Position numbers and translations under genes: made by a program. 48,550 bases of DNA from Christensenellales bacterium (lineage in GTDB: Bacteria > Bacillota > Clostridia > Christensenellales > UBA1242), in the NCBI GenBank assembly GCA_050943075.1, contig JBMNOM010000001.1, positions 1 through 48,550 of the forward strand, in the 5' to 3' direction. The notes under the pieces are model-generated. The model was not told the origin of the DNA and made no database searches. It saw nothing but the letters and a program-made list of their open reading frames with translations. Shown here one piece after another: positions 4,903 through 48,540 of the stretch. Position 1 is the stretch's first letter, and the number at the start of each line of letters is the position of its first letter.

Positions 4903-4921
4903 TTTTAACCTCGCTGACTAA

Positions 4922-5174: not shown

Positions 5175-5184
5175 CTTCATCAAC

Positions 5185-5217
5185 AAAAACAAGGCGGGTT
5201 CTTCCCGCCTTGTTTTA
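5185..5217. terminator. Strong symmetric hairpin terminator with no annotated gene attached
   Basis: 10-bp GC-rich stem acaaggcggg/cccgccttgt (5189-5198 with 5204-5213), extendable by A:T pairs. 5-nt loop, A-run upstream and T-run downstream. Confidence 0.6.
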
Positions 5218-5425
5218 AGTAAAGAAACCCTTTTGGGTTGATCTTTACACTTTTAATATGTGCAGTCAAAATTAAATTATTCAAAAAATTTAAAAATTTT
5301 CTTAATTCGTCCAAAATTTAAAAATTTGCACTAATTAAACTTTTAATAAGCATAAAATAGAAAAAAACATAGTAAAAACAAAAATTTAGTTAGAAAAACA
5401 ATCATAAATAAATATCAATTAATGA

Positions 5426-19300: not shown

Positions 19301-20041
19301 TGGAACATCAGTTGGTCTTGTTTTTCTTGCAAATTCAAGCAACGCTTCTTCTTGTGTTGTTTGAGGTTCTCTGTCAAGAACGTTTTTGATGTAATCGTTA
19401 TTTCCGTAAAGTTTTAAAATTTCTTCATTTGTGAAACCAAAACATTTTAAGAAAACGCCAAGTGTGATTTTGCTGCCTCTGTCAAGAACAACTTTCAAAA
19501 CTTCATTTGCAGCCTGTTCAATTTCAATCCACATACCACGTGTTGGAATTAATTGAGAGCGCAATGTTGAATTGTCGTTTTTTTCCCTTGTGAAGTATGC
19601 ACTTGGTGAACGCACGATTTGTGAAACAACAACTCTTTCAATTCCGTTGAACACAAAAGAACCCTCATGTGTCATGAGAGGAATGTCCCCAAGGAAAACA
19701 TCTTGGTCAACAGCTTCGCCTGTTTCTTCAACAACAAACCTTGCTTTAACTTTTAAAGGAATTGAGTAAGAAGCGCCTCTTCTTTTACATTCCTTAATTG
19801 AGTATTTTGGTTTTGTGGTTAAATCTGTTCCCAAAAGATAGAGTTTTGCCTTTCCGCTGTAATCGCTGATTGGTGAAAACTCGTCAAGAACTTTTTGTAT
19901 CCCAGTGTCCAAAAATTCTTGGTAGGCATTTTTTTGGATTTCGAGTAAATCTGGTACAGGTAAAATTTCTTTAAGCTTGCCAAAAGAATATCTTGTGATT
20001 TTGCCAGATTTGATTTTTTTAAAGTATGGACTTTCTTGCAT
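16313..20041 (-). CDS. rpoB: DNA-directed RNA polymerase subunit beta
   Basis: I place the start at ATG 20041, with AAGGAG 8 nt upstream. The ORF-track start at 20119 is a GTG without an SD. 1242 aa with the conserved blocks [15 protein letters not shown] and [15 protein letters not shown], and an acidic C-terminal tail. Only 14 nt separate it from rpoC. Confidence 0.97.
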
Positions 20042-20193
20042 TCTGAACGCACTCCTTAAATAAAATGTCTGTCTTTGCGAATGATAATAAAAACAAAAAA
20101 ACGACAAAGCAACCTTCACTTCGCCCTTTATCTAAAAATATTTAATTTGTTAGTTGTTTTGAAATTACCACTTTTCGCACTTATAACTAATTA

Positions 20194-20222
20194 AGTTTAA
20201 CACCAAAGACTTTCATTGTCAA
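20194..20222 (-). promoter_or_regulatory. Putative rpoBC promoter TTGACA-17-TAAACT
   Basis: On the minus strand, TTGACA (20222-20217), 17-nt spacer, TAAACT (20199-20194). This lies about 150 nt upstream of the rpoB ATG. Confidence 0.5.
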
Positions 20223-20272: not shown

Positions 20273-20353
20273 ATAACTAAACTAAATAATTAACATCTTA
20301 TTCCAATTATAAACAAATCATTACAAAAAATTAATATTATTTTGTTTTTCGAC

Positions 20354-20387
20354 AAAAAAAATAGGCTTTTTAAAACCTATTTTTTTG
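20354..20387 (-). terminator. Weak candidate terminator after the 3,357-aa gene
   Basis: Stem atagg/cctat (20361-20365 with 20376-20380) plus 3 A:T pairs with a bulge, flanked by A8 and T7. This is the only hairpin between the giant genes and rpoB. Confidence 0.4.
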
Positions 20388-20394
20388 TCTTTAT

Positions 20395-23300
20395 TTATAC
20401 TGTTGCTTGAGTGCCAACTTGATTGTATCTGTTTTCCCAGAAAGTTTGTGCCATGCTTTCAAAAACACCAGTTGAAGAATTAAATATTCTTAAAAGAATG
20501 TAGTCTTTACCGTCTTGTGCCACGCTTTCTGCGTTGTAAACAACTTGGTTTGCCTTATAAGTTGGAACAAAACCAGTTGGTTGGTCAACTGAACCTTTGT
20601 TCATATATCCAACAATGTGCCCCCAACTTATATAATGTGTTGGTCCTTCGCCAATTTGTTGAAGAATGCGCAAGTAAAGCACAATTCTTCCAGTGAAACC
20701 TGAATTTGAATCAAATGAAAGTGTTAAGCTGTCGGCAACATCGGAATCGTTAAACACAAAACCAACAAGTCCGCCTGCGTAAAGCTCGTCAAATGCCACA
20801 TTGTATGTGTCGTATTTAACTCTAACTTCACTTTCAGATTTTGAACCTATAATTCTAACATTTAATGCAACACCATCTTTTGCTTTGCTGATTAAACCAA
20901 CAAGCCCACCAATGAATGCTGTGCCTTTGTTATCAATGTTTTCAAGCCCAATTGTGCCGCCTTTTGAAATTGAGTTTACAATTATGTTTGCGTCTGCAAA
21001 ACCATTTGAAACCAAAGTTGCTTCATTAAGTTTAATTGGAGCGGTTGCTTTTTGAGTTATTGCACCAACAAGCCCACCAACAATTATTTTACCTTTAACA
21101 CTACCGTTAAATGTGACACTTTCAAGTTTTCCACCAATCATTTCAGCCACAACACCGCCAACGCGGTTAACTGTTGGGGCTTCAAATCTGATGTTGATTA
21201 CAACATTTTTAAGCAAGCCACCTGCAGCAAGTTCGCTGTTTTGCAAGTTGCCTTTGCTTCCCATTAAGCCAACCACACCGCCAACCCCATAAGGATTGTA
21301 AGGTGAAGTTCTGAACAAGGTTGTGTGTGCGTTTTGTGAATTTGAATTCACATAAACATCTGTCATTTGTCCATAAAACTCGGCTGCAACAAGTGCTGAA
21401 TATGTTGCACCTTGAACAAATTGTCCAGTTTCAACTTCAAGGCGAACATTGTTAATTTTAACGCCGTTGCCAACGCCACCAAACACAAGTGATGCCCATT
21501 CTGCCATTGCAACAATTTGCCCGTTTGATGTCACACTTGAAATTGTTCCTGTGCCACCTGCAACCGCCACAACTGGGGCTGCGTAAGAAAGTTTTGAAAG
21601 AAGTGTTGTTTGATGATTTCTAAACAAGAAGTAGCTTCCAATTCCATCTGTTAAAATTTCGTTTGGATTAAGTGTTTTGTTGCTTCTGAAAATTGCATTA
21701 ACAGAAACACTTGATTTAACTGTGTGAATTACATAGTTTGCAGTTGCTCTTCCAATTATTCCACCAACAATGTTTTTTCCAATTATGACATTTGTGTTGT
21801 CACTTGATGATGCGTTTTCAACTTTAATGTTGAATATCACACCTGCGTCAAGTGTTCCTGCAAGCCCACCAACAACATTGACGTTTGGCAAGTTAATTGA
21901 AAGTGGTTTTACGCTTAAGTTTTTAACAGAACCTTGTGAAGATGAACCATTGCCAATTTTTGCAAACAATCCACCTGAGGCAAATGTTGCCGCGCTGTCC
22001 ACAACAAACCCAGAAATAATCATTCCATTTCCTTCAATATCACCAACTAAAATTGTGTTGTAAAGACGTGAAACTGGATTTACACTGTCATAATTAATGT
22101 CGGAAACAATTCTGTAATATTTTGTGTTAAAGCTTCCGCTGTTTGAAGAAAGAATTCTAAATTCAAGTTCTTGTGCAGAAATTATTAGTGTTGGATTGTG
22201 CAAACTGCCTTGTGCGTGTTCGCCCACATTTGTGTAGTAATATGTTATTTCACCTGTTTCTTTGTTTTCAACAGTTCTGTCCATATCAATTTCCATCTTG
22301 CTTTCTGCAATTAAGTTTGGACTAACAAGTTCTGGTTTGCCCAAAATGAACACTTTTGAATTGTTGTTGAATTGGCTTTCTTGTGTCATAGTTGGTCTAA
22401 ACCAAACACCATGAGAAACCGCTGTTGAGTTTGTGAAATTATAGTTTTTAAAGAATGATGAGTTTGAATCTGTGAATTCTTGAATTGTTAATGGTTTTAA
22501 GAATTCTGGGTTAACCATTGAGTTTGTGGTGTTAATTGAAGCGTTTATATTTGCTGTTATATCACGCAAATAGAAGCTGTCTTTAATTATTCCCATTGAG
22601 GTGATGTCGTCGATGTAAACAAAACCAAAACTTGTTTCAACTGCATTGTTTTTAAGCATTGATGTTGAATATGCCCTAACAACTTCACCTTTGTTATAGA
22701 ACACAAAACCTGCCGCTTTTGAAGATGTTTGAAGTGGAATATTGGAGTAAGAATCTTGCACCAAACCATTGTTTTCAAACACAAAGCCCGCCGCCTCGGT
22801 TGATGATAAAATGACTTTTGATGTGTCGTTTGCATAAATTGGCAACATGAAAAGCCCTGTGTGTTTCCCAGAAACATAAGACATTATAATTTGTCCGCCA
22901 CTTTCTGAATATTGCCCATTGTAAACAACAAATCCTGCTGTTTTGTTTTGCGATTCATTAACACTTGCTGTGTTTATAATTAATGATTCTGCAACATAAC
23001 TGCTTGAAATTTTGCCAATGTTATATCCAACAAAACCGCTTAAGTTTGCAGCAGCAGAAATTGTCATTTTAACACGTGAGTTTGTTATATACCCTTGGTT
23101 AAAGCCCACCAAACCTGCAACATAATTTGAAACAACTTGGTTTTGGCTGAAGAGAACTTTAACAGATGTATTTCCCGCTGTGACAACTTCAACATTTGAA
23201 ACAATGCCTCTGTTAATTCCCGCAAGAAGTCCAAAGTAAATTGTTTTTGCACTCTCTGCTTGTGTTAATGTGACAATTGCAGATTGCACAACTTCAATTT

Positions 23301-26300
23301 TTAAGTTTCTTAGTAAAGTTTTTTCTGGAATGCTTGCAAATATGCCCATATATTGAGAATCTGCATTAAATGAAAGATTACTTGCCAAAACAAATTTATA
23401 ACTATTACCATCAAGCCCTGCAATTGCAGTTGTGATTGGTGTGTGGTCGTGTGGAATAATTATGTCATTTGTTAAAATGTAGTAAGAATTTGGATTCATG
23501 GCAATAAGTTCTTCATAACTTGCAACTGGTGTTGGAGTGTCCATTGAACTTATTTGATAAATATTCATCACAAATTCCACTTGTGTGATGTTTTGTGTTG
23601 TGGAATATTCTGCCTTGCCTTGTTTGTAATCATAACCATATTCAAAACCAAATTTATACATTGGGTTTTTGTCAGAAACAATTTTGTAAGGTGTGAAAAC
23701 CAAATTGCCCCTTGACTTCACAATTGTGAAATAACCATTTGTGTCATTTAATGAAACAAGTGTTGTGCCATTTGGAATTGAAGTATTGTTGTTAATTGTT
23801 CGCCAGTTAGCACTGTCTTCCAAGAACTCATAACCACCATCACCAGTTGGGGTTGCCATTTGATAGCGCCAAATGCCGCTGTTTGCCAAGTTGTTTTCAA
23901 ATGCTTTAACGCCTTCAACAACAGTTAAAATTGAAGAGTTGTATTCAGCAGTTAAGCCATTTAAAAACTCTGTTTTAAATGTGTATGTGTCGCCAATTGG
24001 AACACTGACAATTCCATTTGAGCCATCCTTAATAATGGAATATTCGTTGTTTTTAAGCACAATAAAGTCAACAATCACAAAGTTAATTGTGTGTATTTCA
24101 CTTCTTAATGCTTGTCCATTAATAATTTTTTGCCCATAAACACTAATTGTTCCTGCAATATTGTTTTCAGGATATGTGCTTATTACTTGGCTTACAGAAA
24201 TTGTTCTGTTTGCTTTTGAAATTGCTAAATATTCAGCATTTGTTGTAGTTAAGAAAATTTCGCTTTCAAGATATCCATTAGATTGAATTGTGAAGGAATA
24301 ATTTTTTCCTCTTGCAAGATAGAAGTTTTCATTTTGATCTTTATAATTATTATTTATATTAATAGTCACATCTTTTTTAAATTTAACATTAACAGTTTTA
24401 ACTGTTTCAAATGCAATTTGGTTGCCTTTGTAAGCCTTGAAAGCAAAGTTGACAGTTTGTCCATTTGTTGCTCCTGCTTGGCTTAAAGCATATTTTATGT
24501 AGATGTCACTTGTGATTAAACTTTTGTCAACTCTTAAACCTTTGTCTAAAAGAACTGCACCTCTAACTGTGTTTCCGCTTTGGTCAATTAAGGAAATGAT
24601 TGCACTTAAATTGTCGTTTAAGAGAACAACATCCAAGTAATCAAATTGTGAAAACACTGGGTAAACTTGCACTTTGAAGTGGTTTGGATTTGTTGCTTGT
24701 GGGTCAACAAAATTGTTTTCTTCTTTTCCAGCTTCAATGTCTTGAGAAGTTGAACCTTCAAAAGATTGCACAATTATGTTTGCAATTTGCTGTGTTAAAA
24801 TTTGCACTTCAATGTTCAAACTTATTTGTGCTTTTTCATCTTGATATCTAAAATTGTAATTTGCAATGCTTGCAGAGTCTTCTTTAATTGTTAAACTTGC
24901 ATTAAATCTTTGTGCTATGTAATTCAATTTAATAAAACTTGTTAAATCATAATTTTCATCTTTAACATCATACTCACTGCTGTTTTCATTTTTTAAGAAA
25001 AGTTCGAATGAATATGTCACATCAATTCTTTCGTCAAGAGTGAAAACTGTGTTTGTGTCAAGATTTAAGCTTTGGCTAAATGCCCCATTTTCAAACCTTA
25101 ACATTTTTGTGATGGGATTAATTTCAATTATAATTTGTTTTGTTTGGGTGTTTTGCCCAACGTGTTTTGTAATTTCAATGGCAATTTTCTTATTTTCCAA
25201 GTTTTCTTCTTGGTTTTTAAAGAAATTTTCTGGTAAGAAGTTTGCAACTGAAATGTTATAAATTTTATTTATGTTTGTAATTGTGAAATAATTTCCTGCA
25301 ACCATGTCTGAATTAATCACTTTAAATTGTGTTAAATTCAAATTGTCAGAAAAATCATCTGTTGTTAATTTAACTTCATAGTCAAAGTTATCAATTGGCT
25401 CGGCTTTAACGCTTGAAATGTTGCTTTCAATTTTGCTTGCGCCAATTAAATGCATAACAGGAATATTAACAGAAGTGTCCACTTCTTCATTTTTTAAGAA
25501 TGTAGATGAATAAACATTTCCGTCAGAATAAACAACTTCAAGTTTTGCTTTAATTTCAATTGTTGTTCGTCCAGTTGAATTAATTGCTCTTAATTGATAA
25601 GTTGCATTATTTTTCTCAAACAAAACAGTTTGAATTGCGTCATAACTGTAATCTGTTGCGTAAAGCGTGAAGTCGTTTGAATTAACAAGTGGAATATCAT
25701 ATCCACCAAAATCATTGGCATCCAAAGTTTCATAAAACACAGATGTTAGAACAACATTGTTCAAAGTGTTAATGTTAATTAAACTGCCTGCCGCACCAAC
25801 ATTAATGCTGTCTGCAATAATAAGTTCTTTTGAGCCATCTTTATAAAGTGCAAAGTTGCTTGCAGCGTTTGCAATGTAAATTACAACATCTTTGTAAATC
25901 CTTTGGTTTAGCATACTTGTAATTCTAATTTGTGCAAAGCCTGTTTGCATAATTCTTAATTGACTGCTGCTTAAAACTGTGATTGTGTTTGGGTTAAATG
26001 AATAAATTGACACTTCGCCTTCTGTGACAAATGGCAATGAGTATGTATTAATTGTGTTAAGCAAAGCTTGGTCTTGTTTGTTAAGCGCTTCATAATAGTA
26101 TAAATACGCCATTGAAACGCTTCCTTCTTCACTTGCAAGAACATTTTCCTCAAGTGGTGTTGCACTTAATGTTGCAAGCGCTTCTTCAAACACTTGCCCA
26201 ATTTCTCCAATCAACATATCGCCATAATAGTTTGTTAAACTTGGAGAAATGTTAAAGTCAACAAATCTGCGTTTGCCTGTTGGCAAAGGTTGTCCATCTG

Positions 26301-30468: not shown

Positions 30469-30522
30469 AGTGTTTCTCCTTGCCTTTTTGCAATGTGTAA
30501 AAGTTTGTTTTTGTTTTACTTC

Positions 30523-45500: not shown

Positions 45501-48414
45501 CAGGTTGATTTAAAGAGTTAATTATAAACGCGTCTTGTGGAATAATTTTAATAATTCCAGTTCCGCCAGTTTTTAATTCTGTGTTCAAGTTAATTAAACC
45601 AGTGTTTTCATCAATGCTTAAAATGTTTGAATTTGTGCCAGTGTCTGGCTCAAAGAAATATTTCAATTTTTTGTTAAATGCGTTTTGATTTCCAGCAGCA
45701 GCTGCAATGAAGAAACTTCTGTCTTCATTTTTGTTAACATTAAGATAAATTCCATTTTCCTCGTTAACATTATAAACTTCAACTGAAGAAACTTTAACCG
45801 CACTTCTAATTGTCATTTCAACTTTAAGAGTGATGACTTTGTTAAATTCACGAATTTGGAACAAAATTTGTCCGCCAGTGTATTTATCAATTACAGTTTC
45901 TGGGTCGGTTGATGTGCGCAAAGCAGTCACTAAATATTCGCCTTCTTTGCCTTCTTGTTTGTGAACAGAAACGTGAACATTTTTGTCGTTAATGCTTGTT
46001 GAAACTGCCAAATTGTTTGAAGTTTGCAAAATTTCGCTGTATGTTGCTGGTGTTTTTCCAAAGTTTACAGAAAGTTTTAATGTTGCTTGTGCATAAGCTT
46101 TGTTGTAAAAACCAACTGTTTCAAGTGAGTATAAATCAAGTGCGCCTGAACTGATTTCAAAGCTTGTCACAGGTTCATAAACTTCAACTAAGAAGAATTT
46201 AACAACACTTTCCTCTTGAGTTGTTGACCTTAATTCTTGATACATTCCATTTTCCGACATTTGGAAAACTTGGCCGCCAAAACTTGCCCTAACCAAAACT
46301 TTGCCAACTTTAAGCGCTGTGATTAATCCAAACGATTTTAAGTCGGTTGCTCTTATTACGCCTGTGTTATCAGCATATGAAACAAGTTCAATGTCTTCAT
46401 CTGCCAATTTAATATCATAGTCAATAAAACTAAATTCAACGTTATATGTGTTTTTTAATAAATTTGTTAAGAAACTCACGGTTGAGCCATTTTTAATTGC
46501 AAGTTTAAAGTCAATGCCTGGAAGTTTGTTGACAACATATTCACCAACAGAGGAAGATTGATTGCTAGCAACTGAAGAAATTTGAACATTTGCTTTGAAA
46601 GGCACAAGAGTGTGAACTTTCAAACTAATTGCTCTGCCATTACCAAAACTAATTCCCAAAATCGAGGTTGCAACTTCATTATTTGCTTTTGAAGAAACTT
46701 GAACAGAGTAAATTTTAAATTCGTCTGCAACTTCTTCTTCTCTTAATGTGTTTTTGTTAACAATAATGTTGTCGCCATTTGTAAAGCTGATGAAGTTTGC
46801 AACTTCTGCATCAGCAGGATAAACTTTGAAGTAAAGCCTTTGTGTTTCAACTTTGCTGCTGTCGAAATACGTGTTTGCATTTTCTGGGTTTTCAAAACCA
46901 ACAAACTCTGCTTGCGACACGCCTTTTTTCACACTAAAGTTAATAATTGCTTCTTTTTTGTTTTCGCCATTGTTATAGTATTTTGCGCCAAAACGTGTTT
47001 CAACAATAATTTGTGCATCAGAAACATTTTTGCTTGCGTTTGCAACAATGAAAATTTCTTGGTTTTCTTTAACTTCAAGTTCACCATCACTGTTTAATGC
47101 AAGCAAAACTAAACGGCTTGCAGATTGACGCACATAAATATTGATGTTGTTTTCATTTGGAGTTTCTGGTGAGTAATCTGTTGTTTTTAAGAAGAATGTT
47201 TTATATTCTTCCGCAACAGTGCTTGGAGAAATTCCAAACTTCAATGACAAACCTTCTTCAAGTGCATAGTTTGTGAAAAGTGTGTATGTTTGAGCATCCT
47301 CTGCCATTTGGTTGTTTATGTAAATGTTTTCAATTATGTCGTAAGACAAAATTTCAACACGGTTTTCTTCTGTGGAGTAAGAATAGTTGTAGCCGTCGTA
47401 AGATATTTTAAAATACAAACGTGAAAGCCCACTTTGTTTTGCAGCTTTCAAGTCAACACTTAAATATTTATCAGCTTTTTTGTAATTTGTGGAAACAACT
47501 TGAACAAAGTCTGTTGTAAGTGAACTATCTTCAAGAACATAACTAATTGTCACGTCTTTGTCAATGTTCAATTTGTCAAGTTGAATTTTAACAGTTTCAT
47601 TTGCAAAGCTTGAGCCAGGGCCAGTTGCAGGAGCATTTGTTGCCACGTAAACTCTTGCAAAATTGTTTTCTTCTTTTTGCAAAGTTTGTTCAAGTGAATT
47701 TGTTAATGTGTACATTTCTTTTGTGATTGGAGTTAAAATGTCAAAAGTAAGTGAAACAGAATTAACATCTTCTTGGTCGGACATTGCTTTAACAGAAATT
47801 GTTTTAATTGAAACTGGTGTGCCTTCAGCAACACGCAAAACGCCATTTTGCAAAGTGATGAATTCTGGCGCTGGATTGTTTTCAATTTCAAATGTCACAT
47901 TTTTTTGGTCTGTGTGTTCTGGAACAAATTCCACAAGGCTGTTATCAACGACAGTTTGTCCGCCACGCAAAACAAAGTTTTTGAAATTTGATTGTTTTGC
48001 AAGAATTTGTCTAACAGGTTCAATAACCTTAACTGTGAACATTGTTTTTTTGTTTATGTTTTGTTTTGAGGAAACAGTCACGTATGATGTGCCTTTTGTG
48101 ATGGCTTTAATTGTGAGTTCAGTTTTTCCATTTCCAAGGTAGGTTTGTTTGTAAATGGAGATGTTTTGATTTTCAACAGATATGTAAATATCAGACAAGA
48201 TATCTTCGCTTGCCCCTTTTGCCTGTATCACAACTTTTTCTAAATTGTTTTCTGTTTTTCCAAGAAAAATTTCAACTTCATTTTTTGAAGCTGTAAAAAC
48301 TAAATTTTTTGTTTGGTCGCCACACGCTGCCAAAATTCCGGAAAATAAAACCAATAAAGTCATTAACAAAGTTAAAACAACTTTTTTTGATTTATACATT
48401 TTTTCACTCACCAT
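30523..48414 (-). CDS. Giant surface lipoprotein (about 5,963 aa) with Ig-like segments, about nine GLUG-type solenoid blocks and an internal polyglycine island
   Basis: Uninterrupted ORF ending at TAG 30523-30525. GGAGG lies 4 nt before ATG 48414, 7 nt before the in-frame GTG 48411 and 19 nt before ATG 48399, so any of these could be the start. The signal peptide ends in the lipobox ..LFSGILAAC. Cap-like motifs include SSNPILIRNAKEFNDVFGLS (40441-40500) and GTKEKPYLIYNLAELKT (34321-34380). Confidence 0.9.
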   Translation of the reverse strand: MVSEKMYKSKKVVLTLLMTLLVLFSGILAACGDQTKNLVFTASKNEVEIFLGKTENNLEKVVIQAKGASEDILSDIYISVENQNISIYKQTYLGNGKTELTIKAITKGTSYVTVSSKQNINKKTMFTVKVIEPVRQILAKQSNFKNFVLRGGQTVVDNSLVEFVPEHTDQKNVTFEIENNPAPEFITLQNGVLRVAEGTPVSIKTISVKAMSDQEDVNSVSLTFDILTPITKEMYTLTNSLEQTLQKEENNFARVYVATNAPATGPGSSFANETVKIQLDKLNIDKDVTISYVLEDSSLTTDFVQVVSTNYKKADKYLSVDLKAAKQSGLSRLYFKISYDGYNYSYSTEENRVEILSYDIIENIYINNQMAEDAQTYTLFTNYALEEGLSLKFGISPSTVAEEYKTFFLKTTDYSPETPNENNINIYVRQSASRLVLLALNSDGELEVKENQEIFIVANASKNVSDAQIIVETRFGAKYYNNGENKKEAIINFSVKKGVSQAEFVGFENPENANTYFDSSKVETQRLYFKVYPADAEVANFISFTNGDNIIVNKNTLREEEVADEFKIYSVQVSSKANNEVATSILGISFGNGRAISLKVHTLVPFKANVQISSVASNQSSSVGEYVVNKLPGIDFKLAIKNGSTVSFLTNLLKNTYNVEFSFIDYDIKLADEDIELVSYADNTGVIRATDLKSFGLITALKVGKVLVRASFGGQVFQMSENGMYQELRSTTQEESVVKFFLVEVYEPVTSFEISSGALDLYSLETVGFYNKAYAQATLKLSVNFGKTPATYSEILQTSNNLAVSTSINDKNVHVSVHKQEGKEGEYLVTALRTSTDPETVIDKYTGGQILFQIREFNKVITLKVEMTIRSAVKVSSVEVYNVNEENGIYLNVNKNEDRSFFIAAAAGNQNAFNKKLKYFFEPDTGTNSNILSIDENTGLINLNTELKTGGTGIIKIIPQDAFIINSLNQPEIIQDNKVYKTFKIIVADGKSQSTSFRIESLEEIEDFTAHYTLKNDVVVPANWEAKDFSGGLYGKEEGTTEKHVINFTNNNLTPLKTTLFASLSQNAIVKDLIIVGEIEVANGGFVALTNSGTITGVIVDTFLKGGKYAPSKIQMISGGETIGGLVGTNNATGKILNSAFFGLINASTGFVGGIAAYNNGEINGAAVEFYRYENDNTDNEVYGGILTSNSIVGGISAVTSGVILNSYVYSYHNKTALSGVAVGAIAYNALSNARFEKVFARINGINALASVLLVSQYNGSVLAYTGTLSLNIKNSYILTYLPDQANSEIYSFINDNKQYYSNGLSLFNADRQTVIRFYSDRGVVISTSSPWAIGFENNGGYPYLKEIKNDEVDSQIIYDLGFINSENVLVSENKLNAIFFMYEPLSSVGLTTAESAQIKAWNTLGFQTLFGTSSKNIKVKIANGSNSASVNSNSLEMLKTGELTLDVFLKYDFSARKTVQVYIIHKINEVGLLYNGEALGLNPQITVKKGTTQVISTDVSVTRVVTDRLIEFKQNNNLKIVLEPINSAEDIVSSTNSSIFSIDTSKIDGLVNFRAYPLILDANETYNYILFSKLIKSFSIKTYTGAFSIETNIKDIVRIQPKDVITVNVEVLTDAPNELLDVKVFDQTSSLTFTFRGRTYAYEEMFVGDSKQLVLNLVRQTTEGDKTRNFYTLKLEIADEFKDYNFNGLKLSFEISPVEHPNVFGVFNVEIDSQVIEFVGVRSREFNYFYMTEGYVFKSEPTNLITPGKSALLSIDLFPAYAYYDSLEITSDVVDGNSVLLDLMKFENAKFFKATTGFRAVENGIAISKSSLQAMEQIAQSNLANLYIFASIPQNVKKDVVFTITIKAYDSNKEELFSTNYILSTQALQSAEIKINGKESEVVARGTSATLEVKVAADQTLDSLTISPNDGDSGAIITGIEFGGVTETVDNALNTKTYTISLYVSELARFISATSPTFRVVAKVKREIGNVQEVATSEVKVTVVDFLIDKESFRLKTDSFNTNVLNIYIGISKLLEFDFDTTEWRDYSATMPEFNEAVSALRAQVEKFRKYNYLYNVEPANSTLPYILNYHEGDTNSYVYKNFLNNLYYVNANGSTTKVLSANGQVIKSGIVDFDFIDDGASTPASSVSEGASAPNTLSVIGARTGQQKMRLLFTYKTPDGMVREFTYDFTINVTAYTDEDNPTQIHTAQEFLDIQNQDVSQDYILMENIELYNYVPFDTSKIKSFDGNNKVISIMSFDLMEEQEVSSLSLALFRNVTSSTTIKNVIVNYYHLNTITINTAKFKTINIAGFAIENNGIITNSHVLAYKMNNLMPNVANPTPGIYVLYATGTTGTSIPSNVTSNIAGFVLNNNGSGYITNSRVGGTEFKVVQNSYLQTITNPLQIFTLSAQGNINGFVGTNSGFIASSFTNNIEIQNATTVGRQTTTAGFAGTNTGKISLSYSKGAYNTRYPNEIRTTGSGISTSSVGAGFVFLNTGEISDSYSNIMIKDRAGNAGSYSAGFVYNNQGLIQRTFSSSVIENSKSTQMSFTGVDSHSNLLNTGTITNSYYYAPLNTTTGSGDTEELYDSGALRVDSLTNTELFYGFSFANANTKDGVWFMTTSKGIDLISANDIAISSRHVEGQGNANLVYADGYAYGSSSNPILIRNAKEFNDVFGLSKSTPIQQYFNLEQKAVFGNYRILANINLYDLTSSQGEDYKLSSSEMRLTNAAIVDGNNFTISNIELVSSVNNTQKFYGMFAYLEKNSIIKNLNIGLLGINASNITHVGAVAGAINNSKIVNINLFAQNNSQTALVLGQNIVGGIVGLVTGNSEIISLTTTNVSVTADFFNKTSFERQTYIRKENLALMNNQTLSYAGGIAGVVDIFTEDKLGQKFYFKDRVMSYSASANLKVFGMNQIRAATVGGVLGYSGLNTFLRDLSYEVVANTQTATQKIISYKYAAGGLVGELFGNLTQSKIEHTAVLQKTIENNIANYYNTNLTFTRGNETLFIEANADYEPLFVGGLVGQVFSGELSNSYAKVNVIGTNARFVGGLIGAIGDFKVDTEYRNLKPIGTVLIQELYHFGDLKSASSKEKIVGVQEEFAAGAGGAFGFVEFVAPSTFNDYEEVFIIIDGLNTITYLNKTQPTILGANNKIETKDIYDLYAYTYDTKAKQFIASINYSAHSVARTSDSPNSLISDLFMIPETYNGLLTPKIYTTNYFIKANENYYLQKSIIGGTQNDPKTITDKVVPLNEIRDVAVDAVQMDIIFRNNDWDENNWERKTGNLLPSIVFTVSSSIIYIRTAADFALMATYPDKTFIIIAGGPDSQNKIIDLSSLTDETFKQIQSFSGVLKGYTPENEELVGKPVPEYGFSGYALKEALIGIATNGAVFSDFVIQDSGYHNDIDIMKGSALLVEQSSVAIFKNIIINNSRIVTESRNAALLVGHAINSTFENLEVNYTTTKKIMMQYVTSQAVNKDANFYAGLITAKATSDIKTTFKNIKINVNNRNGINIDGSSITANDPSVSIVKNINVGGIIGAVVQGSVEFSRDTLGFTNRGPAAIIQNLFISLTGSSLESDYYTLKAGGLAGFVGNASIMLLEPAKEVATTVSFDFAAKFKAGDNNAASSASIGGLFGFAGGNVHTAFTENTKLNIKPSVAFQNQLPTQTENYSNVHIGGVVGNVKGLLKIDNVVVGKGEESDDLRSIPTSFDIRANQNNLYVGGIAGEANNTVTISSNLVGKLFNPKISNNSTNSGSAFVRFGGIIGSLNSSSNESNIFKNNTNQVVKIENSKQVDAGGLVGYLDVLDAKVNDLTPSYSLKTIDGRTTTDRTGNIVNTSFDIVRHDNSSINAGGLIGRIKVPTNVETSSSTIYSKQVLLEGNIAFGDINLIYQPLASVAETKSSYIGGLVGTSSNNTLVKNNKILTTLYTNRINEKVWLDAVAGNKTLSAANTEQGSNNYYSSQINLTTHSSLFLTSEKIFAENLTYEELLNEMGESLIRTILSAENSLFAVDGDGKLVKNGHKLNPYEINSSSEFSSTSLSARTLRKDFRTYFTLGDIQTFNQPAIKLGETSISNIAIIGNGKQIQLKNTEKRVFNEIDEKSFISGLNLTLDIEQNYVYPEGYSGYLYKYGQSVYSYPFTIYGALSAVNHGVIYASAVKGKEYVSQDFATYSNEFYAKLLITNTNLVGGIVGLNKGFIADSLTNIEINNITDVKTTSNTAINNNLFVEQDFADFIQINGSSFTIRPITSGFVGINEGDIKTSISSGYIKTPFGIAYSFGADNQNVAFLNNNNAGPSVRNSFAYTNAVNAFNKESETKALTSLNNVFGYSANDTNAYDIYATGVESKAGTAQKLITKQLFSMQPSVNTNFEFKVNYNFGYLTFGRNYNSSSFDYMRVLTSIDKDYLISNLGILKQKDDLLQISVNKNVYLTNDIIITDAMGRFDDGDTFSALDEQSSWNWNSMSLNKLKLFGNDFTISGFRVLSNQENQKTNNGFFSTINETEIHNLTLANGQVVMDNPDKFGTGVVGAFAGLATNSLIENSKNLGVSVVSNYYGYAGGIVGKLNGGSIKSTINTGNVIVRLINPSLSENDATINAGGIAATFLNVSSSNDIYGNENYGFVYSSHIENENAELLENNTYGIGYRPSQNSQAANYNHGLVRKEFVTENNEIVVDESVYTLFNKTLQDVKQTPSNRALPQDVTTLQGNGTKEKPYLIYNLAELKTALSRYRNEVTSTFSIILMNNIDISDYYNSSMVKMFIDSFDGIIYGNNKLLSYKFNSDTIKQFLINSVSADSTITNLNVLGTISKSYYYNSLFVNKNYGLLQNINVYGSIIKNGELLNEDVTDSKNNLSGLAINNFAKIKSVNNFAVITSNDGQNARYQDIESIIHRTNSISASKIGGIVAINNENAEIIDGNNFGALIAGNGGQGYGRDNALLDKLIQQSDIDTKTGGLYLTQEEKTFIKYFYTVVAYTDSEIYEVENEQYLGIGRTDANNDESEGLTTLENLGQTFINLYNEYVERFINNPSLLYKFKLITIVNGYYRFDSTELVRDIYKYFYNKGFYSSEAMNLYQTLLNNIYLKYKQKSIQLYKDPLPLDRLMIIWRYAALSDYIDELVADDGTTSYETVGIIGKKLYSISINSPTIVDGGGGLNAVDSPDTDYGLPGENGKDGLPGGNASIIGGVASKSISSESYVTGNNFGIIIGGHGGTGGDGGYGGDGGHGNREKASIEFFKFFDRLSELKNDRFHGGNGGNGGDGGNGGSSIIAHYIGIGNSKIAQSNAKSLIQPIAIAGLEGRGGYGGKGGIGGHGVLGKSLAELDFQNVNPWFALYDAVYSFGGHGGTGGNAGFNGNSYELLDVALELYSFDDISLQNSDLRKGKASYFTYKNLGNIKIIYQTALLFYNDYYTTPGGIGGSPYEIEKVTTVPNVGGSKVNVDANGNFIINDWSDLRRAIFINNTYQNDNVIYYLTRDFRFAKTPSGHAKPEDYAADVYEPLPSFYGTINGKISDTRNAKIIINGSYPSLSLLSGRGKIENLNIRLAIDNYSEKFDSINQILFNNKGTDNHQSGINFDAGSTISYNQTKDQYILINSDENGQAQLPSATNITFNFISSTFSSVNAQGLLLPDNNEIKTKAQFAEFVLLANLGSDKDFILDYDISIPVENMTENKTVINVFNGSLRSMTSKKITLQNSVDEEQSVLYKSFIFDNRGTITGIGFDGFFSLSGVAINNNGLIDNVRIGSASDVKTIIANDEIYGISVNNNGTISNVLNFYNLTSKSGNAAGIVGVNQRLITGAKNFGDIKAGKETQENDGIIIEATKGGDAAGIAIYNGSNDSSSPAYDENGNLLRGITKSENTGNITAGNGATGQPGGNAAGIVVYNFYTEDYVDEDGDPQINIYYGVLMSFESNRLNMGLISNTGEIIAGNGSNGENGGSAGLIIAVNSITIEGNTIEGYYNNEEAEDAFYNQGGTVVLGLPNGTLFTLTIIPIPEE
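32440..33062 (-). other. Polyglycine (GGxGGxGG) motif cluster inside the 5,963-aa protein
   Basis: Reverse translation was checked at 32821-32880 (GHGGTGGDGGYGGDGGHGNR) and 32701-32760 (RFHGGNGGNGGDGGNGGSSI). Further runs are VDGGGGLN.., GRGGYGGKGGIGGHG and GGHGGTGGNAGFNG. Confidence 0.85.
48322..48414 (-). other. Type II (lipoprotein) signal peptide of the 5,963-aa protein
   Basis: (MVSEK)MYKSKKVVLTLLMTLLVLFSGILAA|CG. The Cys codon TGT is at 48322-48324. Confidence 0.75.
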
Positions 48415-48493
48415 ATTTCCTCCAAATGTAAACAAAAACTGTTCTGAAAAGGCATATTATATATAAATTTATTTTAGAGAATTTTTATAAATA

Positions 48494-48517
48494 TATACTC
48501 TCTATGTAGAGAGTATA
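48494..48517. promoter_or_regulatory. Perfect 11+2+11 bp palindrome (candidate operator) overlapping the -10 of the giant-gene promoter
   Basis: TATACTCTCTA-tg-TAGAGAGTATA, verified base by base. On the minus strand its first 6 nt are the -10 hexamer. Confidence 0.6.
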
Positions 48518-48540
48518 ATAAAAAGGCGCTTTCAAGTCAA
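48512..48540 (-). promoter_or_regulatory. Putative promoter of the giant-lipoprotein operon: TTGACT-17-TATACT
   Basis: On the minus strand, TTGACT (48540-48535), 17-nt spacer tgaaagcgcctttttat, TATACT (48517-48512). This lies about 95 nt upstream of the start codon. Confidence 0.55.

What the first reader, a model, noticed from the sequence alone, without database searches (positions are those of the whole stretch)
20395..48540. Two tandem giant lipoprotein genes (about 5,963 and 3,357 codons) forming a putative 28-kb operon directly upstream of rpoBC
Seen: two uninterrupted minus-strand ORFs (48414->30523 and 30468->20395) take 27,966 of 48,550 nt. Both begin with a basic n-region, a hydrophobic core and a lipobox (GILAAC and LLLTAC). 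Neither ends in an LPxTG-like or hydrophobic C-terminal anchor. Both start with several ~90-100-aa beta-rich segments that look like bacterial Ig-like (Big_2-type) domains. They then alternate such segments with long runs of ~20-30-aa repeats centred on GG[ILV][VAI]G or AGF[VA], followed by xNxGxIxN[SC]. I read these as the Pfam-defined GLUG motif, probably forming a beta-solenoid. Only 54 nt separate the genes, with a strong SD and no hairpin. One promoter candidate lies at 48512-48540, and the only terminator-like hairpin is at 20354-20387. Inference: this is one very long transcript encoding two lipid-anchored fibrillar surface proteins, possibly adhesins or a surface coat. By eye I found no catalytic motif (no HExxH), so the function is open. 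Proteins of this size are rare and would be a large fraction of the coding capacity if the genome is small, which I cannot tell from this window.
Basis: partly seen in the sequence, partly recalled or inferred. Interest (0 to 1): 0.8.

Follow-up and report, generated by a model that had tools for sequence, protein, structure and literature searches.

The report
Giant lipid-anchored surface proteins beside rpoBC
Two enormous genes (5,963 and 3,357 codons) encode lipid-anchored cell-surface fibres that belong to a large, unnamed protein family found in tiny-genome gut Clostridia, where they are the best candidates for attachment to a partner or host.

Summary
Two uninterrupted minus-strand ORFs, A (48414->30523, 5,963 aa, 652 kDa) and B (30468->20395, 3,357 aa, 369 kDa), sit upstream of confirmed rpoB/rpoC. 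Each starts with a lipoprotein signal, and the lipobox Cys is the only cysteine in each protein.

Pfam, NCBIfam and PDB sequence searches find nothing significant. GLUG is only a recurrent sub-threshold hit, and Big_2 is absent. AlphaFold plus Foldseek show right-handed beta-helix modules, closest to the beta-helices of 3n6z and the S. pneumoniae IgA1 protease. They also show tandem Ig-like beta-sandwiches in at least one spacer.

A and B are paralogues. An exhaustive HMMER scan finds 836 clusters at E<=1e-30. The best 150 are mostly 5,000-7,700 aa, and 125 of 135 long members carry a lipobox. A B-type gene precedes rpoB in 45 of 61 related uncultured Clostridia. Named relatives belong to family UBA1242, which has genomes of about 0.7-1.6 Mb and a predicted partner-dependent lifestyle. 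A-B adjacency recurs in one other species; three other contigs carry the A-type gene at another locus.

The N-terminal half is conserved and the C-terminal part is hypervariable.

Best reading: N-terminally lipid-anchored adhesin-like fibres, probably co-transcribed here. The function is inferred, not shown.

The parts
48512..48540 (-). Sigma-70-type promoter candidate for gene A (TTGACT-17-TATACT), 98 nt upstream of the ATG and 10 nt from the contig end
   Evidence: One search gives 10 of 12 matches. Near-consensus TTGACA/TATAAT-type hexamer pairs also lie upstream of A-type genes in relatives L086, L087, L002 and L085; they were read by eye from the printed sequence and the spacers were not measured. 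Promoter-like matches are not enriched over shuffles, so this is a candidate only.
48494..48517 (.). Perfect 10-bp inverted repeat TATACTCTCT-ACAT-AGAGAGTATA overlapping the -10 hexamer (operator-like)
   Evidence: -13 kcal/mol as RNA, z -4.1. Function unknown; conservation was not tested.
30523..48414 (-). Gene A: 5,963-aa (652 kDa, pI 5.0) giant lipoprotein. SD GGAGG lies at 48423-48419.
   Evidence: The same 5,963-aa protein is on record as P0016, from a 48,550-nt contig held by NCBI and JGI. It aligns collinearly with its closest relative P0023 over A7-4907 at 37.7% identity.
48322..48414 (-). A signal peptide and lipobox (residues 1-31, GILAA|C). Cys31 is the only cysteine in A.
   Evidence: A lipobox is present in 125 of 135 family members of at least 4,000 aa.
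45613..48321 (-). A residues 32-934: N-proximal non-helix region, proposed stalk (fold not established)
   Evidence: No GLUG-like units, no internal sequence repeats, no Pfam hit. Weakly conserved in the family.
44473..45612 (-). A residues 935-1314: first beta-helix module with GLUG-like units
   Evidence: Iterated profiles built from B modules hit A935-1217 and 1076-1314. Repeat units at 1123-1169.
41983..44472 (-). A residues 1315-2144: second non-helix region. Residues ~1740-1990 are predicted as tandem Ig-like beta-sandwiches.
   Evidence: In the AF2 model, pLDDT is mostly 60-89 (a few blocks lower) only for tile residues ~400-650. Foldseek gives 82 PDB matches at E<=1e-3; every one of the 50 shown contains Ig-like or other beta-sandwich domains (CfaB pilin, Sap S-layer, RET cadherin-like, Fabs, intimin D00-D0, BcpA).
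33469..41982 (-). A residues 2145-4982: near-continuous array of about seven homologous right-handed beta-helix modules. Residues 2145-3300 are the family-conserved core and the part homologous to B2298-2927.
   Evidence: BLASTP of A against B gives 28% identity. Module-start (cap) HMM hits lie at 2179, 2637, 3997 (weak), 4374 and 4682. Profile hits lie at 2145-2564, 2611-3046, 3272-3576, 3583-3863, 3985-4372, 4325-4650 and 4636-4982. Conservation is shown.
32215..33468 (-). A residues 4983-5400: segment with no counterpart among the 134 long top-ranked family members compared. By eye it is a helix-prone stretch followed by Gly-rich GGxGG runs, which are encoded by 9-nt-period arrays at 32709-32884.
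   Evidence: No Pfam hit.
30526..32214 (-). A residues 5401-5963: C-terminal region with further GLUG-like units and one module cap at 5599. It is shared only with the three closest relatives.
30469..30522 (-). 54-nt A-B spacer with SD AAGGAGA (30481-30475) and no hairpin
   Evidence: In relative L084 the equivalent spacer is 17 nt.
20395..30468 (-). Gene B: 3,357-aa (369 kDa) giant lipoprotein, paralogue of A. Layout: signal 1-23 (LLLTA|C, the only Cys), non-helix 24-951, module 952-~1400, non-helix ~1401-2306, modules 2307-~2700 and 2754-~3300.
   Evidence: An identical protein and 100% identical DNA occur in the Logan assembly of SRR31066172. Orthologues lie upstream of rpoB in 45 of 61 related species.
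20351..20389 (-). Intrinsic-terminator-like hairpin with a U-tract, 6 nt after the B stop codon
   Evidence: -16.1 kcal/mol, z -6.0, 0 of 200 shuffles fold as well. L084 has a hairpin with a T-run at the same place.
20194..20222 (-). Separate rpoB promoter candidate (TTGACA-17-TGnTAAACT). It marks the downstream boundary of the giant-gene unit.
   Evidence: L084 has a TTGACA/TGGTAAAAT hexamer pair at the same position, read by eye. rpoB and rpoC are confirmed.

Best explanation
A and B are paralogous, N-terminally lipid-anchored, fibre-like cell-surface proteins.

Proposed mechanism, step by step:
1. A promoter at about 48540-48512 probably drives one ~28-kb transcript. It ends at the hairpin 20389-20351, upstream of the separately promoted rpoBC. 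(Inferred from sequence signals.)
2. Each product is exported by Sec. It is diacylglyceryl-modified and cleaved at its single cysteine (A Cys31, B Cys23), so the N-terminus sits in the outer leaflet of the cytoplasmic membrane. (The motif is shown; the lipidation is inferred.)
3. The first ~2,100 residues form a stalk that carries the rest through and beyond the wall. This stalk is ~930 aa of non-helix, one beta-helix module, then ~850 aa of non-helix that is at least partly Ig-like beta-sandwich. (Inferred.)
4. A conserved pair of GLUG-type right-handed beta-helix modules follows. In A, about six more modules and a unique Gly-rich segment come after that. This distal part is the fastest-evolving part of the family. 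(Conservation and variability are shown.)
5. The distal part binds a ligand on a partner cell, host surface or glycan. (Inferred.)

The organism is most likely a UBA1242-like, genome-reduced gut Clostridium that is predicted to depend on a partner. That makes attachment the most likely role.
For: Real genes:
- A and B are uninterrupted over 17.9 and 10.1 kb in 33% GC DNA.
- There are no long nucleotide repeats that could have collapsed in assembly.
- An independent Logan contig is 100% identical across both gene junctions.
- One species-level cluster keeps 6,535-6,545-aa ORFs in 8 separate assemblies.
- Complete B orthologues measure 2,877-3,251 aa.

Lipid anchor:
- Both proteins match the lipobox pattern.
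- The signal is conserved in 125 of 135 long family members and in all 5 complete B orthologues.
- The lipobox Cys is the only Cys in 9,320 residues, against 1.31% Cys in the 11 other window proteins.
- There is no other hydrophobic segment and no LPxTG.

Folds:
- A beta-helix is modelled at pLDDT 85-95. The best PDB matches are 3n6z and the IgA1-protease chains 7uvl and 6xjb at probability 1.00, with 6xja at 0.98.
- GLUG is the recurrent best Pfam hit, though sub-threshold.
- Ig-like beta-sandwiches are predicted at about A1740-1990.

Binding rather than catalysis:
- The invariant columns of the conserved core are almost all N, G or hydrophobic residues, plus two Ser (S212, S259) and one Asp, the D of a DGN cap motif.
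- There is no HExxH and no enzyme family in Pfam or NCBIfam.
- The pneumococcal IgA1-protease beta-helix binds the IgA1 Fab (PMC7695701).
- The adhesins L. reuteri SRRP and PfbA are among the fold matches.

Polarity of variation:
- The family core, A~1650-3300, is conserved in most of 134 members. Beyond 3300, similarity is detectable only in the closest relatives.
- Within one species, diversity is 0.3-0.4% over most of the N-terminal part and core (up to 1.6% in one window), against 1.2-3.1% at residues 4500-6000.

Importance to the clade:
- A B-type gene lies upstream of rpoB in 45 of 61 related species.
- 836 representative clusters score E<=1e-30.
- UBA1242 genomes are 0.67-1.6 Mb, lack standard transporters for sugars, amino acids and peptides, and are predicted to be partner-dependent (PMC12306168).
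- 28 kb is therefore about 2-4% of such a genome.

Transcription unit: supported by sequence signals and by the same tilS-like | A | B | terminator | promoter | rpoB layout in L084.
Against: - There is no expression, localisation or binding data.
- Lipidation rests on the motif only. The lgt and lsp genes could not be looked for because only this window was available.
- The N-terminal ~930 aa of both proteins has no established fold.
- The second AF2 model is poor overall (mean pLDDT 49.5).
- Foldseek E-values for the beta-helix are modest (5.8e-4), and parallel beta-helices are also typical of polysaccharide lyases, hydrolases and phage depolymerases.
- In three other contigs the A-type gene is not followed by a B-type gene and rpoB, so co-transcription is not a conserved requirement.
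- 16 of 61 related species lack a giant ORF upstream of rpoB. These include close relatives (L004, L005).
- Placement of the window in UBA1242 is inferred from rpoB similarity (65-81%) to MAGs, of which only two named genera are documented as UBA1242.
Confidence: 0.6

Rival explanations
1. The proteins form a protective surface coat. They would make a dense, S-layer-like or glycocalyx-like brush that shields a fragile, reduced-genome cell from phage, bile, immune factors or predators, without binding a specific partner.
For: - The lipid anchor, great length, acidic pI and lack of any catalytic motif fit a coat as well as they fit an adhesin.
- The B. anthracis Sap S-layer assembly domain is among the Ig-like fold matches.
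- The genes are present clade-wide.
- A hypervariable distal part is also expected under phage or immune pressure.
Against: - There is no SLH, CWB2 or other S-layer family hit.
- The Sap match is a generic Ig-like similarity with low TM-scores.
- Known S-layer proteins are much smaller and self-assemble in two dimensions, and nothing here suggests a lattice domain. This point rests on general knowledge.
- 16 of 61 relatives lack the gene at this locus.
Confidence: 0.2
2. The proteins are surface-tethered enzymes. One or more of the parallel beta-helix modules would be a polysaccharide lyase, a glycoside hydrolase or a depolymerase acting on mucin, dietary glycans or a partner's capsule or wall. 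Alternatively a module could gate a protease, as in IgA1 proteases.
For: - Fold matches include GH55, PL6 alginate lyases, pectate lyases, phage tailspike depolymerases and IgA1 proteases.
- Giant proteins of Omnitrophota were linked to cell-wall degradation (bioRxiv 10.1101/2023.11.21.568195).
Against: - These enzyme matches have low probabilities (0.1-0.85) and TM-scores around 0.1-0.2. The probability-1.0 matches cover only the non-catalytic beta-helix of IgA1 proteases and 3n6z.
- No Pfam or NCBIfam enzyme family, no Peptidase_M26 domain and no HExxH were found.
- The invariant core residues are Asn, Gly or hydrophobic residues, plus two Ser and one Asp in the DGN cap motif, not an acidic or basic catalytic cluster.
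- A profile search against PDB sequences finds nothing.
Confidence: 0.12
3. The proteins are contact-dependent competition effectors, that is, polymorphic toxins. The long conserved N-terminal part would deliver a variable C-terminal toxic domain into neighbouring cells.
For: The family has a conserved N-terminal half and a highly variable C-terminal part.
Against: - The variable part is about 2,600 aa of further beta-helix modules, not a short toxin domain.
- There is no toxin or immunity family hit.
- The downstream genes are B/rpoB or radC, not small immunity genes.
- There is no T5SS, T6SS, T7SS or LXG feature. The export signal is a lipoprotein signal, which would keep the protein tethered.
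Confidence: 0.04
4. The ORFs are an assembly artefact or decaying pseudogenes, read by chance or through chimeric joining.
For: The contig comes from a metagenome. Some relatives in short-read MAGs show the gene split into several ORFs (L001, L002).
Against: - The window has no long repeats.
- An independent assembly is identical across the A-B and B-rpoB junctions.
- The same gene order occurs in another species.
- Full-length orthologues exist in hundreds of clusters.
- One species cluster is intact in 8 assemblies.
- An 18-kb stop-free frame in AT-rich DNA cannot arise by chance.
Confidence: 0.02

Closest known systems
GLUG-motif beta-helix domains: the N-terminal beta-helix of Streptococcus pneumoniae and Gemella IgA1 metalloproteases (PDB 6xja, 6xjb, 7uvl, 7uvk) and Bacteroides ovatus BACOVA_03286 (PDB 3n6z)
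   Same: - They are the best structural matches to the conserved module of A, at Foldseek probability 0.98-1.0.
- They share the short GGhhG...N.G.I coil motif.
- GLUG is the recurrent top Pfam hit.
- The pneumococcal beta-helix is a ligand-binding, non-catalytic domain that contacts the IgA1 Fab (PMC7695701).
   Different: - All Pfam GLUG scores stay below the gathering score (at most 19.1 bits against 20.5).
- There is no sequence-level match to any PDB chain, even with a profile.
- There is no M26 peptidase domain, no HExxH, no G5 domain and no LPXTG.
- Here the modules are repeated 3 times in B and about 9 times in A, inside lipoproteins of 3,357 and 5,963 aa.
Gram-positive beta-solenoid adhesins: Limosilactobacillus reuteri serine-rich repeat protein binding region (PDB 5nxk) and S. 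pneumoniae PfbA (PDB 4mr0)
   Same: Both are surface proteins whose binding region is a right-handed parallel beta-helix. Both appear among the fold matches (ranks 20 and 39).
   Different: - The matches are weak (probability 0.69 and 0.05).
- Those proteins are sortase-anchored by a C-terminal LPXTG motif and are far smaller. This rests on general knowledge.
- A and B are anchored at the opposite end by a lipid and lack serine-rich repeats.
Giant fibrillar surface adhesins of bacteria (for example S. aureus Ebh, Salmonella SiiE, Pseudomonas LapA, Marinomonas MpIBP); comparison from general knowledge
   Same: They are very large (0.3-1.5 MDa), modular and acidic. They are built from strings of beta-sandwich domains, with a ligand-binding region far from the anchor.
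   Different: - Those use a C-terminal TM or LPXTG anchor, or type I secretion with an outer-membrane retention module. They consist of many near-identical tandem repeats.
- A and B have an N-terminal lipobox, no near-identical repeats at DNA or protein level, and beta-helix modules as the main building block.
Giant genes of Omnitrophota and gut Clostridia described by West-Roberts et al. (bioRxiv 10.1101/2023.11.21.568195)
   Same: They are very long ORFs found in metagenomes of small or partner-dependent bacteria. They are beta-rich and were proposed to act in cell-cell interaction.
   Different: - Those proteins are 10,000-85,000 aa. They have many transmembrane regions and SecA-like domains (Omnitrophota), or RCC1, Listeria-Bacteroides repeat, dockerin or LRR domains (Clostridia).
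- None of these features is present here. This family is not mentioned in that paper's passages on Firmicutes, Clostridia, lipoproteins, beta-helices or rpoB.

Membership tests
Bacterial lipoprotein (signal peptidase II substrate; PROSITE PS51257-type signal) | Positively charged n-region, hydrophobic h-region, and lipobox [LVI][ASTVI][GAS]-C with the Cys at position 15-35 | tested here: met
   A has LVLFSGILAA-C31 with K5, K8, K10 and K11. B has IMASSLLLTA-C23 with K2, K3 and K6. Both match the pattern.
Bacterial lipoprotein (signal peptidase II substrate; PROSITE PS51257-type signal) | The signal is conserved in homologues, so it is not a chance match | tested here: met
   125 of 135 family members of at least 4,000 aa match, as do all 5 complete B orthologues.
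Bacterial lipoprotein (signal peptidase II substrate; PROSITE PS51257-type signal) | Lgt and Lsp are present in the genome, and the Cys is actually acylated | not testable with these tools
   Only this 48.5-kb window is available, and there is no biochemical data.
Pfam PF07581 GLUG motif | HMM score at or above the gathering score (20.5 bits) | tested here: not met
   There is no hit when whole proteins are scanned. On short tiles the best scores are 19.1 bits (E 0.0016, B2447-2471), 16.1, 14.7, 14.0 and 12.4 bits.
Pfam PF07581 GLUG motif | Recurrent ~20-45-aa coils carrying GGhhG followed by N.G.I | tested here: met
   The motif occurs 16 and 8 times, against about 0.2 and 0.07 expected. The window's own repeat HMM finds about 30 and about 16 units.
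Pfam PF07581 GLUG motif | Right-handed beta-helix fold like that of solved GLUG-containing proteins | tested here: met
   The AF2 model has pLDDT 85-95 over tile residues 30-400. Foldseek gives 3n6z, 7uvl and 6xjb at probability 1.00 and 6xja at 0.98. That these entries carry GLUG motifs is from general knowledge.
Pfam Big_2 (PF02368) and other bacterial Ig-like families | HMM match to a Big_x, Ig-like or fibronectin-type family | tested here: not met
   No such family appears at E<=10 on the whole proteins or at E<=1 on the tiles.
Pfam Big_2 (PF02368) and other bacterial Ig-like families | Ig-like beta-sandwich fold | tested here: inconclusive
   The fold is met for about A1740-1990: pLDDT mostly 60-89, and 82 PDB matches at E<=1e-3, of which every one of the 50 shown contains Ig-like or other beta-sandwich domains. 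The N-terminal ~930 aa of A and B were not modelled. The rest of the second model is below pLDDT 50.
Sortase-anchored (LPXTG) surface proteins | C-terminal LPXTG, then a hydrophobic stretch and a basic tail | tested here: not met
   Neither C-terminus has such a motif, and neither protein has a second hydrophobic segment.
M26 IgA1 / Zmp zinc metalloproteases | HExxH zinc site and a Peptidase_M26 domain | tested here: not met
   There is no HExxH or HxxEH and no Pfam peptidase hit.
Pectate-lyase-like beta-helix enzymes (PL, GH28, GH55, tailspike depolymerases) | Family HMM match, or a conserved catalytic acidic or basic cluster on the helix | tested here: not met
   There is no HMM match. The invariant core columns are N, G or hydrophobic residues, plus two Ser and one Asp of a DGN cap motif. 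The variable distal modules were not examined residue by residue.
Two-gene operon A-B | Same strand, short spacer, no internal terminator, one promoter upstream and one terminator downstream | tested here: met
   The spacer is 54 nt, carries an SD and has no hairpin. There is a promoter candidate at 48540-48512 and a terminator at 20389-20351. These are sequence signals only.
Two-gene operon A-B | Adjacency is conserved in relatives, and co-transcription has been observed | tested here: inconclusive
   The adjacency is conserved in L084. It is absent in L085-L087, where radC follows the A-type gene. No RNA data were available.

The most novel reading that the evidence does not exclude
The A-type and B-type giant lipoproteins are the attachment apparatus of UBA1242-like, genome-reduced Christensenellales. 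They would be long lipid-anchored tethers whose hypervariable distal beta-helix modules recognise a specific partner cell (another gut bacterium) or host surface. This would let an organism without standard nutrient transporters dock and obtain metabolites. That would be a Firmicutes counterpart of episymbiont attachment in Patescibacteria, built on an undescribed protein family.
Probability: 0.25. Interest if true: 0.8.

Novelty: new variant of a known kind. Interest (0 to 1): 0.62.

Why it matters
UBA1242-type bacteria are uncultured and widespread in animal and human guts. Their genomes are about 0.7-1.6 Mb, and they are predicted to live off partners (PMC12306168). One study links them negatively to chicken body weight (PMC13155120). 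Nothing is known about how they contact other cells.

This analysis shows that many of these genomes keep one or two giant lipoproteins, about 28 kb here, or roughly 2-4% of such a genome. The proteins have no Pfam or NCBIfam match above threshold, no name in the databases queried, and no mention in the papers I could search.

That gives a concrete, clade-wide candidate for the cell-contact machinery. It can be tested with existing metatranscriptomes, with antibodies or cryo-ET on enrichments, and with recombinant distal modules.

It also shows two more general points:
- A large family of 5,000-7,700-aa proteins is invisible to current domain libraries.
- Word-indexed protein searches can miss such a family entirely.

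Tried and rejected
Searches that found nothing:
- Pfam and NCBIfam scans of the whole proteins gave no significant hit.
- PDB sequence searches with A, B and the family profile gave nothing.
- The search for homologous proteins failed three ways: the query was too long, the search timed out on 5,000 aa, and it found nothing for the B N-terminus or the B C-terminus. Yet tblastn finds about 50 orthologues, so the empty results reflect the word prefilter, not true absence.
- The genome-contig scan could not use alignment A1 because it had no conserved stretch. With the A tile it found nothing. Only the rpoB query brought in relatives.

Analyses that came out negative:
- A jackhmmer search for internal repeats among the non-helix segments found none, so the idea of a tandem array of recognisably related Ig domains is rejected at the sequence level.
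- DNA repeat searches found no long repeats, so repeat collapse is rejected.
- The second AF2 model is mostly low-confidence. Only about 250 residues of it are usable.
- The viral fold library gave only generic beta-helix matches.

Readings considered and rejected:
- An IgA1 or Zmp protease: there is no HExxH and no M26 domain.
- A sortase-anchored MSCRAMM: there is no LPXTG.
- An S-layer protein with SLH or CWB2 domains: no hits.
- A polymorphic toxin: there is no toxin or immunity module.
- Mollicutes origin with TGA read as Trp: the ORFs are intact under table 11, and relatives carry spoIIID.

The conservation of the promoter-overlapping palindrome was not examined.

Full report

Yes. The ORF list gives exactly the two minus-strand frames described.
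- A runs 48414->30523 from its ATG and encodes 5,963 aa. The ORF opens at TTG 48435. GGAGG lies 4 nt before the ATG and 7 nt before an alternative GTG.
- B runs 30468->20395 and encodes 3,357 aa.
- Together they take 27,966 of the 48,550 nt.
- The next two minus-strand genes are rpoB and rpoC by Pfam. rpoB most likely starts at ATG 20041, not at the GTG that opens its ORF.

Both proteins begin with a basic n-region, a hydrophobic core and a lipobox: GILAA|C31 in A and LLLTA|C23 in B. Both match a PROSITE-style lipoprotein pattern. The signal peptide is the only hydrophobic segment in each protein. Neither has a C-terminal LPxTG motif or any HExxH. The masses are 652 and 369 kDa, with pI about 5.

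The motif GG[ILV][VAI]G occurs 16 and 8 times, against about 0.2 and 0.07 in shuffles. An HMM built from the window's own units (consensus YVGGLVGENNGGKISNSYSN) finds about 30 units in A and about 16 in B, in clusters.

**2. Transcription signals**

- The A-B spacer is 54 nt. It has AAGGAGA 6 nt before the ATG and no significant structure (z -0.86).
- TTGACT-17-TATACT lies at 48540->48512. It is 10 nt from the contig end, so further upstream promoters cannot be excluded. Promoter-like matches as such are not enriched over shuffles.
- A perfect 10-bp inverted repeat overlaps the -10 hexamer.
- Six nt after the B stop codon, a hairpin with a U-tract folds at -16.1 kcal/mol (z -6.0).
- rpoB has its own TTGACA-17-TGnTAAACT promoter at 20222->20194.

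On sequence signals, then, the two giant genes form one unit that is separate from rpoBC. No RNA data could be consulted.

**3. Are the genes artefacts?**

No.
- There are no long or near-identical DNA repeats. The only arrays have a 9-nt period, lie at 32709-32884, and encode a Gly-rich stretch.
- A Logan assembly of run SRR31066172 is 100% identical over 15,021 nt. It spans the end of A, all of B and the start of rpoB.
- The closest A relative aligns collinearly over A7-4907.
- Complete B orthologues measure 2,877-3,251 aa.
- One species-level cluster of an A-type protein is intact at 6,535-6,545 aa in eight separate assemblies.

**4. What domain libraries say**

Whole-protein scans against Pfam and NCBIfam give nothing at E<=0.01 and only noise up to E=10. 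phmmer against all PDB sequences gives nothing at E<=1. A family profile does not do better.

When shorter tiles are scanned, the GLUG motif (PF07581) becomes the recurrent best hit but never reaches its gathering score of 20.5 bits.
- The scores are 19.1 bits (E 0.0016, B2447-2471), then 16.1, 14.7, 14.0 and 12.4 bits.
- 5 of the 12 sequences in the family alignment match.
- No Big_2 or other Ig-like family appears at any threshold tried.

**5. What structure prediction says**

*First model.* I modelled A2150-3100 with an alignment of ten metagenomic homologues plus the B paralogue.
- Mean pLDDT is 66.9. It reaches 85-95 over tile residues 30-400.
- That stretch shows the regular pattern of 3-4-residue strands that marks a beta-helix.
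- In Foldseek against the PDB, 3n6z ranks first at E 5.8e-4. It is Bacteroides ovatus BACOVA_03286, deposited as a putative IgA1 protease.
- The pneumococcal and Gemella IgA1 proteases reach probability 0.98-1.0, with E-values of 1.3e-3 to 2.6e-2.
- GH55, PL6, pectate lyases, tailspikes and the beta-solenoid adhesins SRRP and PfbA score lower.
- In the pneumococcal enzyme this beta-helix is a non-catalytic domain. It contacts the IgA1 Fab and gates the active site (PMC7695701).

*Second model.* A1340-2185 is poor overall (mean pLDDT 49.5).
- About A1740-1990 reaches mostly 60-89, with a few lower blocks, and is all-beta.
- Foldseek gives 82 PDB matches at E<=1e-3. Every one of the 50 shown contains Ig-like or other beta-sandwich domains, such as pilins, Sap, cadherin-like RET, Fabs and intimin D00-D0.

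The solenoid reading is therefore supported. The Ig-like reading is supported for one spacer only. The N-terminal ~930 residues remain unassigned.

**6. Architecture**

A and B are paralogues. BLASTP aligns A2177-2833 with B2298-2927 at 28% identity.

An HMM of the module start has a consensus close to NP.xI.t.eeF...Y.L..DI.l...f.G.ldGNn.tIs. It marks B952, B2307 and B2754. In A it marks 2179, 2637, 3997 (weak), 4374, 4682 and 5599.

Profiles iterated from the B modules detect further homologous modules in A:
- 935-1314
- 2145-2564
- 2611-3046
- 3272-3576
- 3583-3863
- 3985-4372
- 4325-4650
- 4636-4982

Both proteins share one blueprint:
- signal peptide;
- about 930 aa of non-helix;
- one module;
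- about 830-900 aa of non-helix;
- two modules.

A continues beyond that blueprint with:
- about six more modules;
- a segment at ~4983-5400 that has no counterpart in the 134 long family members compared (helix-prone by eye, then GGxGG-rich);
- a C-terminal part shared only with its three closest relatives.

The non-helix segments show no detectable internal sequence repeats.

**7. The family and its genomic setting**

*Word-indexed search.* It found only ten fragmentary, unnamed homologues for the A core. It found none for two B tiles.

*Exhaustive HMMER scan.* The scan of 1.84 billion representative proteins used the core profile.
- It found 10,081 proteins at E<=1e-3, 2,365 at E<=1e-10 and 836 at E<=1e-30.
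- The best 150 are mostly 5,000-7,700 aa, with a median of 6,358 aa.
- The conserved core lies at about residue 1,800-3,000 in most of them.
- P0016 and P0033/P0157 are the window's own A and B.
- None of the ten clusters inspected carries a name.
- 125 of 135 long members start with a lipobox.

*rpoB as a handle.* The closest species representatives are uncultured gut Clostridia MAGs at 65-81% identity. They include Candidatus Caccopulliclostridium and Candidatus Caccovivens.
- GTDB places both genera in family UBA1242. Their genomes are 1.0-1.1 Mb with 34-35% GC (PMC8035907).
- The window has 30-38% GC.

*B-type gene.*
- In 45 of the 61 loci with at least 9 kb of upstream sequence, the region directly before rpoB is one uninterrupted ORF of at least 2,877 aa.
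- Each of these aligns to B at 26-31% identity (tblastn).
- In L003, the closest relative but with a shorter flank, the upstream ORF is 41% identical to B.
- The five complete ones measure 2,877-3,222 aa and carry lipoboxes.

*A-type gene.*
- In L084 (rpoB 75.5% identical to the window's) the layout matches the window: a tilS-like gene on the opposite strand, A-type (6,454 aa), a 17-nt spacer, B-type (3,251 aa), a terminator, a promoter, then rpoB.
- In three other contigs the A-type gene (6,540, 7,060 and 7,682 aa) follows M23 peptidase-acp-spoIIID, with or without the tilS-like gene. It is followed by radC.
- In those three contigs the A-type gene sits at its own locus. The A-B junction seen here is probably lineage-specific, but no single genome was shown to carry both genes at separate loci.

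Near-consensus TTGACA/TATAAT-type hexamer pairs, read by eye, precede the A-type genes in four relatives.

**8. Evolutionary pattern**

The family evolves fast. B orthologues are about 26-41% identical where rpoB is 66-81% identical.

Variation is polarised.
- Tiles of A from about 1650 to 3300 hit most of the 134 long members.
- Tiles beyond 3300 hit almost none. Full-length BLAST coverage falls steadily to zero by residue ~5000.
- Within one species cluster, pairwise differences are 0.3-0.4% over most of the N-terminal part and core, with up to 1.6% in one window. They reach 1.2-3.1% at residues 4500-6000.
- For a protein anchored by its N-terminus, the fastest-evolving part is therefore the part farthest from the cell.

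A and B also share an odd feature.
- The lipobox Cys is the only cysteine in 5,963 and 3,357 residues.
- The other eleven window proteins average 1.31% Cys. Homologues in other genomes carry 4-69 cysteines.
- Family-consensus Cys positions are Ser here.

**9. Most likely mechanism**

*Shown:*
- the lipoprotein-type signals and their conservation;
- the beta-helix modules, and at least one Ig-like string;
- paralogy of A and B;
- clade-wide presence;
- the proximal-conserved, distal-variable pattern;
- sequence signals for a single transcription unit.

*Inferred:*
- Sec export and Lgt/Lsp lipidation;
- an extended fibre. I estimate very roughly 90 nm for B and 130-160 nm for A, assuming about 3.7 nm per beta-sandwich and 0.48 nm per ~25-aa coil. 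This is my estimate, not a computed result;
- a binding function for the distal modules.

UBA1242 genomes are 0.67-1.6 Mb. They lack standard transporters for sugars, amino acids and peptides. They are predicted to obtain metabolites from other cells (PMC12306168). For such organisms, about 28 kb (roughly 2-4% of the genome) kept for two surface proteins is best explained by attachment to a partner or host surface.

The rivals are a passive protective coat, tethered glycan- or protein-degrading enzymes, contact-dependent toxins, and an artefact. Each is listed with its evidence. None is excluded except the artefact.

**10. Comparison with known systems and novelty**

- At the fold and motif level, the modules resemble GLUG-type beta-helices of IgA1/Zmp proteases and 3n6z. 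They fail the Pfam threshold, and they lack every other feature of those proteases.
- In kind, the proteins resemble giant fibrillar adhesins. They differ in the anchor (N-terminal lipid), in the building block (beta-helix modules rather than near-identical beta-sandwich repeats) and in the absence of recognisable repeats.
- The giant-gene survey of West-Roberts et al. describes other Clostridia giants (RCC1, Listeria-Bacteroides repeat, dockerin). This family is not mentioned in the passages I checked.
- The UBA1242 paper mentions only unspecified hypothetical membrane proteins.
- Searches for GLUG together with beta-helix, and for giant proteins together with Christensenellales, found nothing.

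I therefore class this as a new variant of a known kind: an undescribed, domain-library-invisible family of giant lipoproteins. The interest is moderate to high because of the organisms that carry it, not because of the fold.

Noticed in passing
window 20395-48414 (proteins A and B): Each giant protein has exactly one cysteine, the lipobox Cys (A31, B23). The other window proteins average 1.31% Cys, and homologues elsewhere carry 4-69 Cys. Only the closest A relative (P0023) shares this. Consensus Cys positions are Ser here. The reason is unknown.
   Followed up: partly
window 48494-48517: A perfect 10-bp inverted repeat, TATACTCTCT-ACAT-AGAGAGTATA, overlaps the -10 hexamer of the gene A promoter candidate. 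It looks like an operator site.
   Followed up: no
window 20093-20125 (-): A hairpin (-11.1 kcal/mol) followed by a T-run lies inside the rpoB leader, between the rpoB promoter (20222->20194) and the probable rpoB start at ATG 20041. It may be a leader attenuator.
   Followed up: no
window 16313-20119 (-): The rpoB ORF opens at GTG 20119, but similarity to relatives begins at about residue 27. The real start is probably ATG 20041, which makes the B-rpoB intergenic region 353 nt.
   Followed up: partly
window 868-1611 (-): A 247-aa ORF has a Cys-rich N-terminus (11 Cys) and a Pfam collagen triple-helix repeat (E 1.2e-6). It is a bacterial collagen-like protein, possibly spore-surface related, given spoIIID in relatives.
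   Followed up: no
window 8937-10385 (-) and 11473-12498 (+): Two ORFs have no Pfam match. One is 482 aa with an N-terminal hydrophobic segment. The other is 341 aa with no Cys and no Trp.
   Followed up: no
L085, L086, L087, L002 (relatives): The A-type giant gene has a conserved upstream neighbourhood in other lineages: M23 peptidase-acp-spoIIID, preceded by pth and mfd in L085 and L086, with or without a tilS-like gene. radC lies downstream in L085-L087; L002's contig ends inside the giant gene. This is a different locus from rpoBC. The window and L084 join the two loci.
   Followed up: partly
L004, L005, L006, L013, L016-L018, L025 and others: 16 of 61 related species have no giant ORF upstream of rpoB, and ordinary-sized genes sit there instead. 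They include close relatives by rpoB (78-79% identity). The gene has been lost or moved in a subclade.
   Followed up: partly
L078-L081 (relatives, rpoB 66-68% identical): The ORF upstream of rpoB is longer than 3,140 aa and still open at the locus end. Only its first ~1,200 aa within the locus resemble B or A modules. The last ~2,000 aa before rpoB have no detectable similarity to either, which suggests a different C-terminal extension.
   Followed up: no
method note (versus 31, 65): The word-indexed protein search returned 10, 0 and 0 hits for tiles of these proteins. Yet the family has at least 836 representative clusters by exhaustive HMMER, and about 50 orthologues by tblastn. An empty result from the indexed search is not evidence of absence for such fast-evolving, low-complexity-like proteins.
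   Followed up: yes
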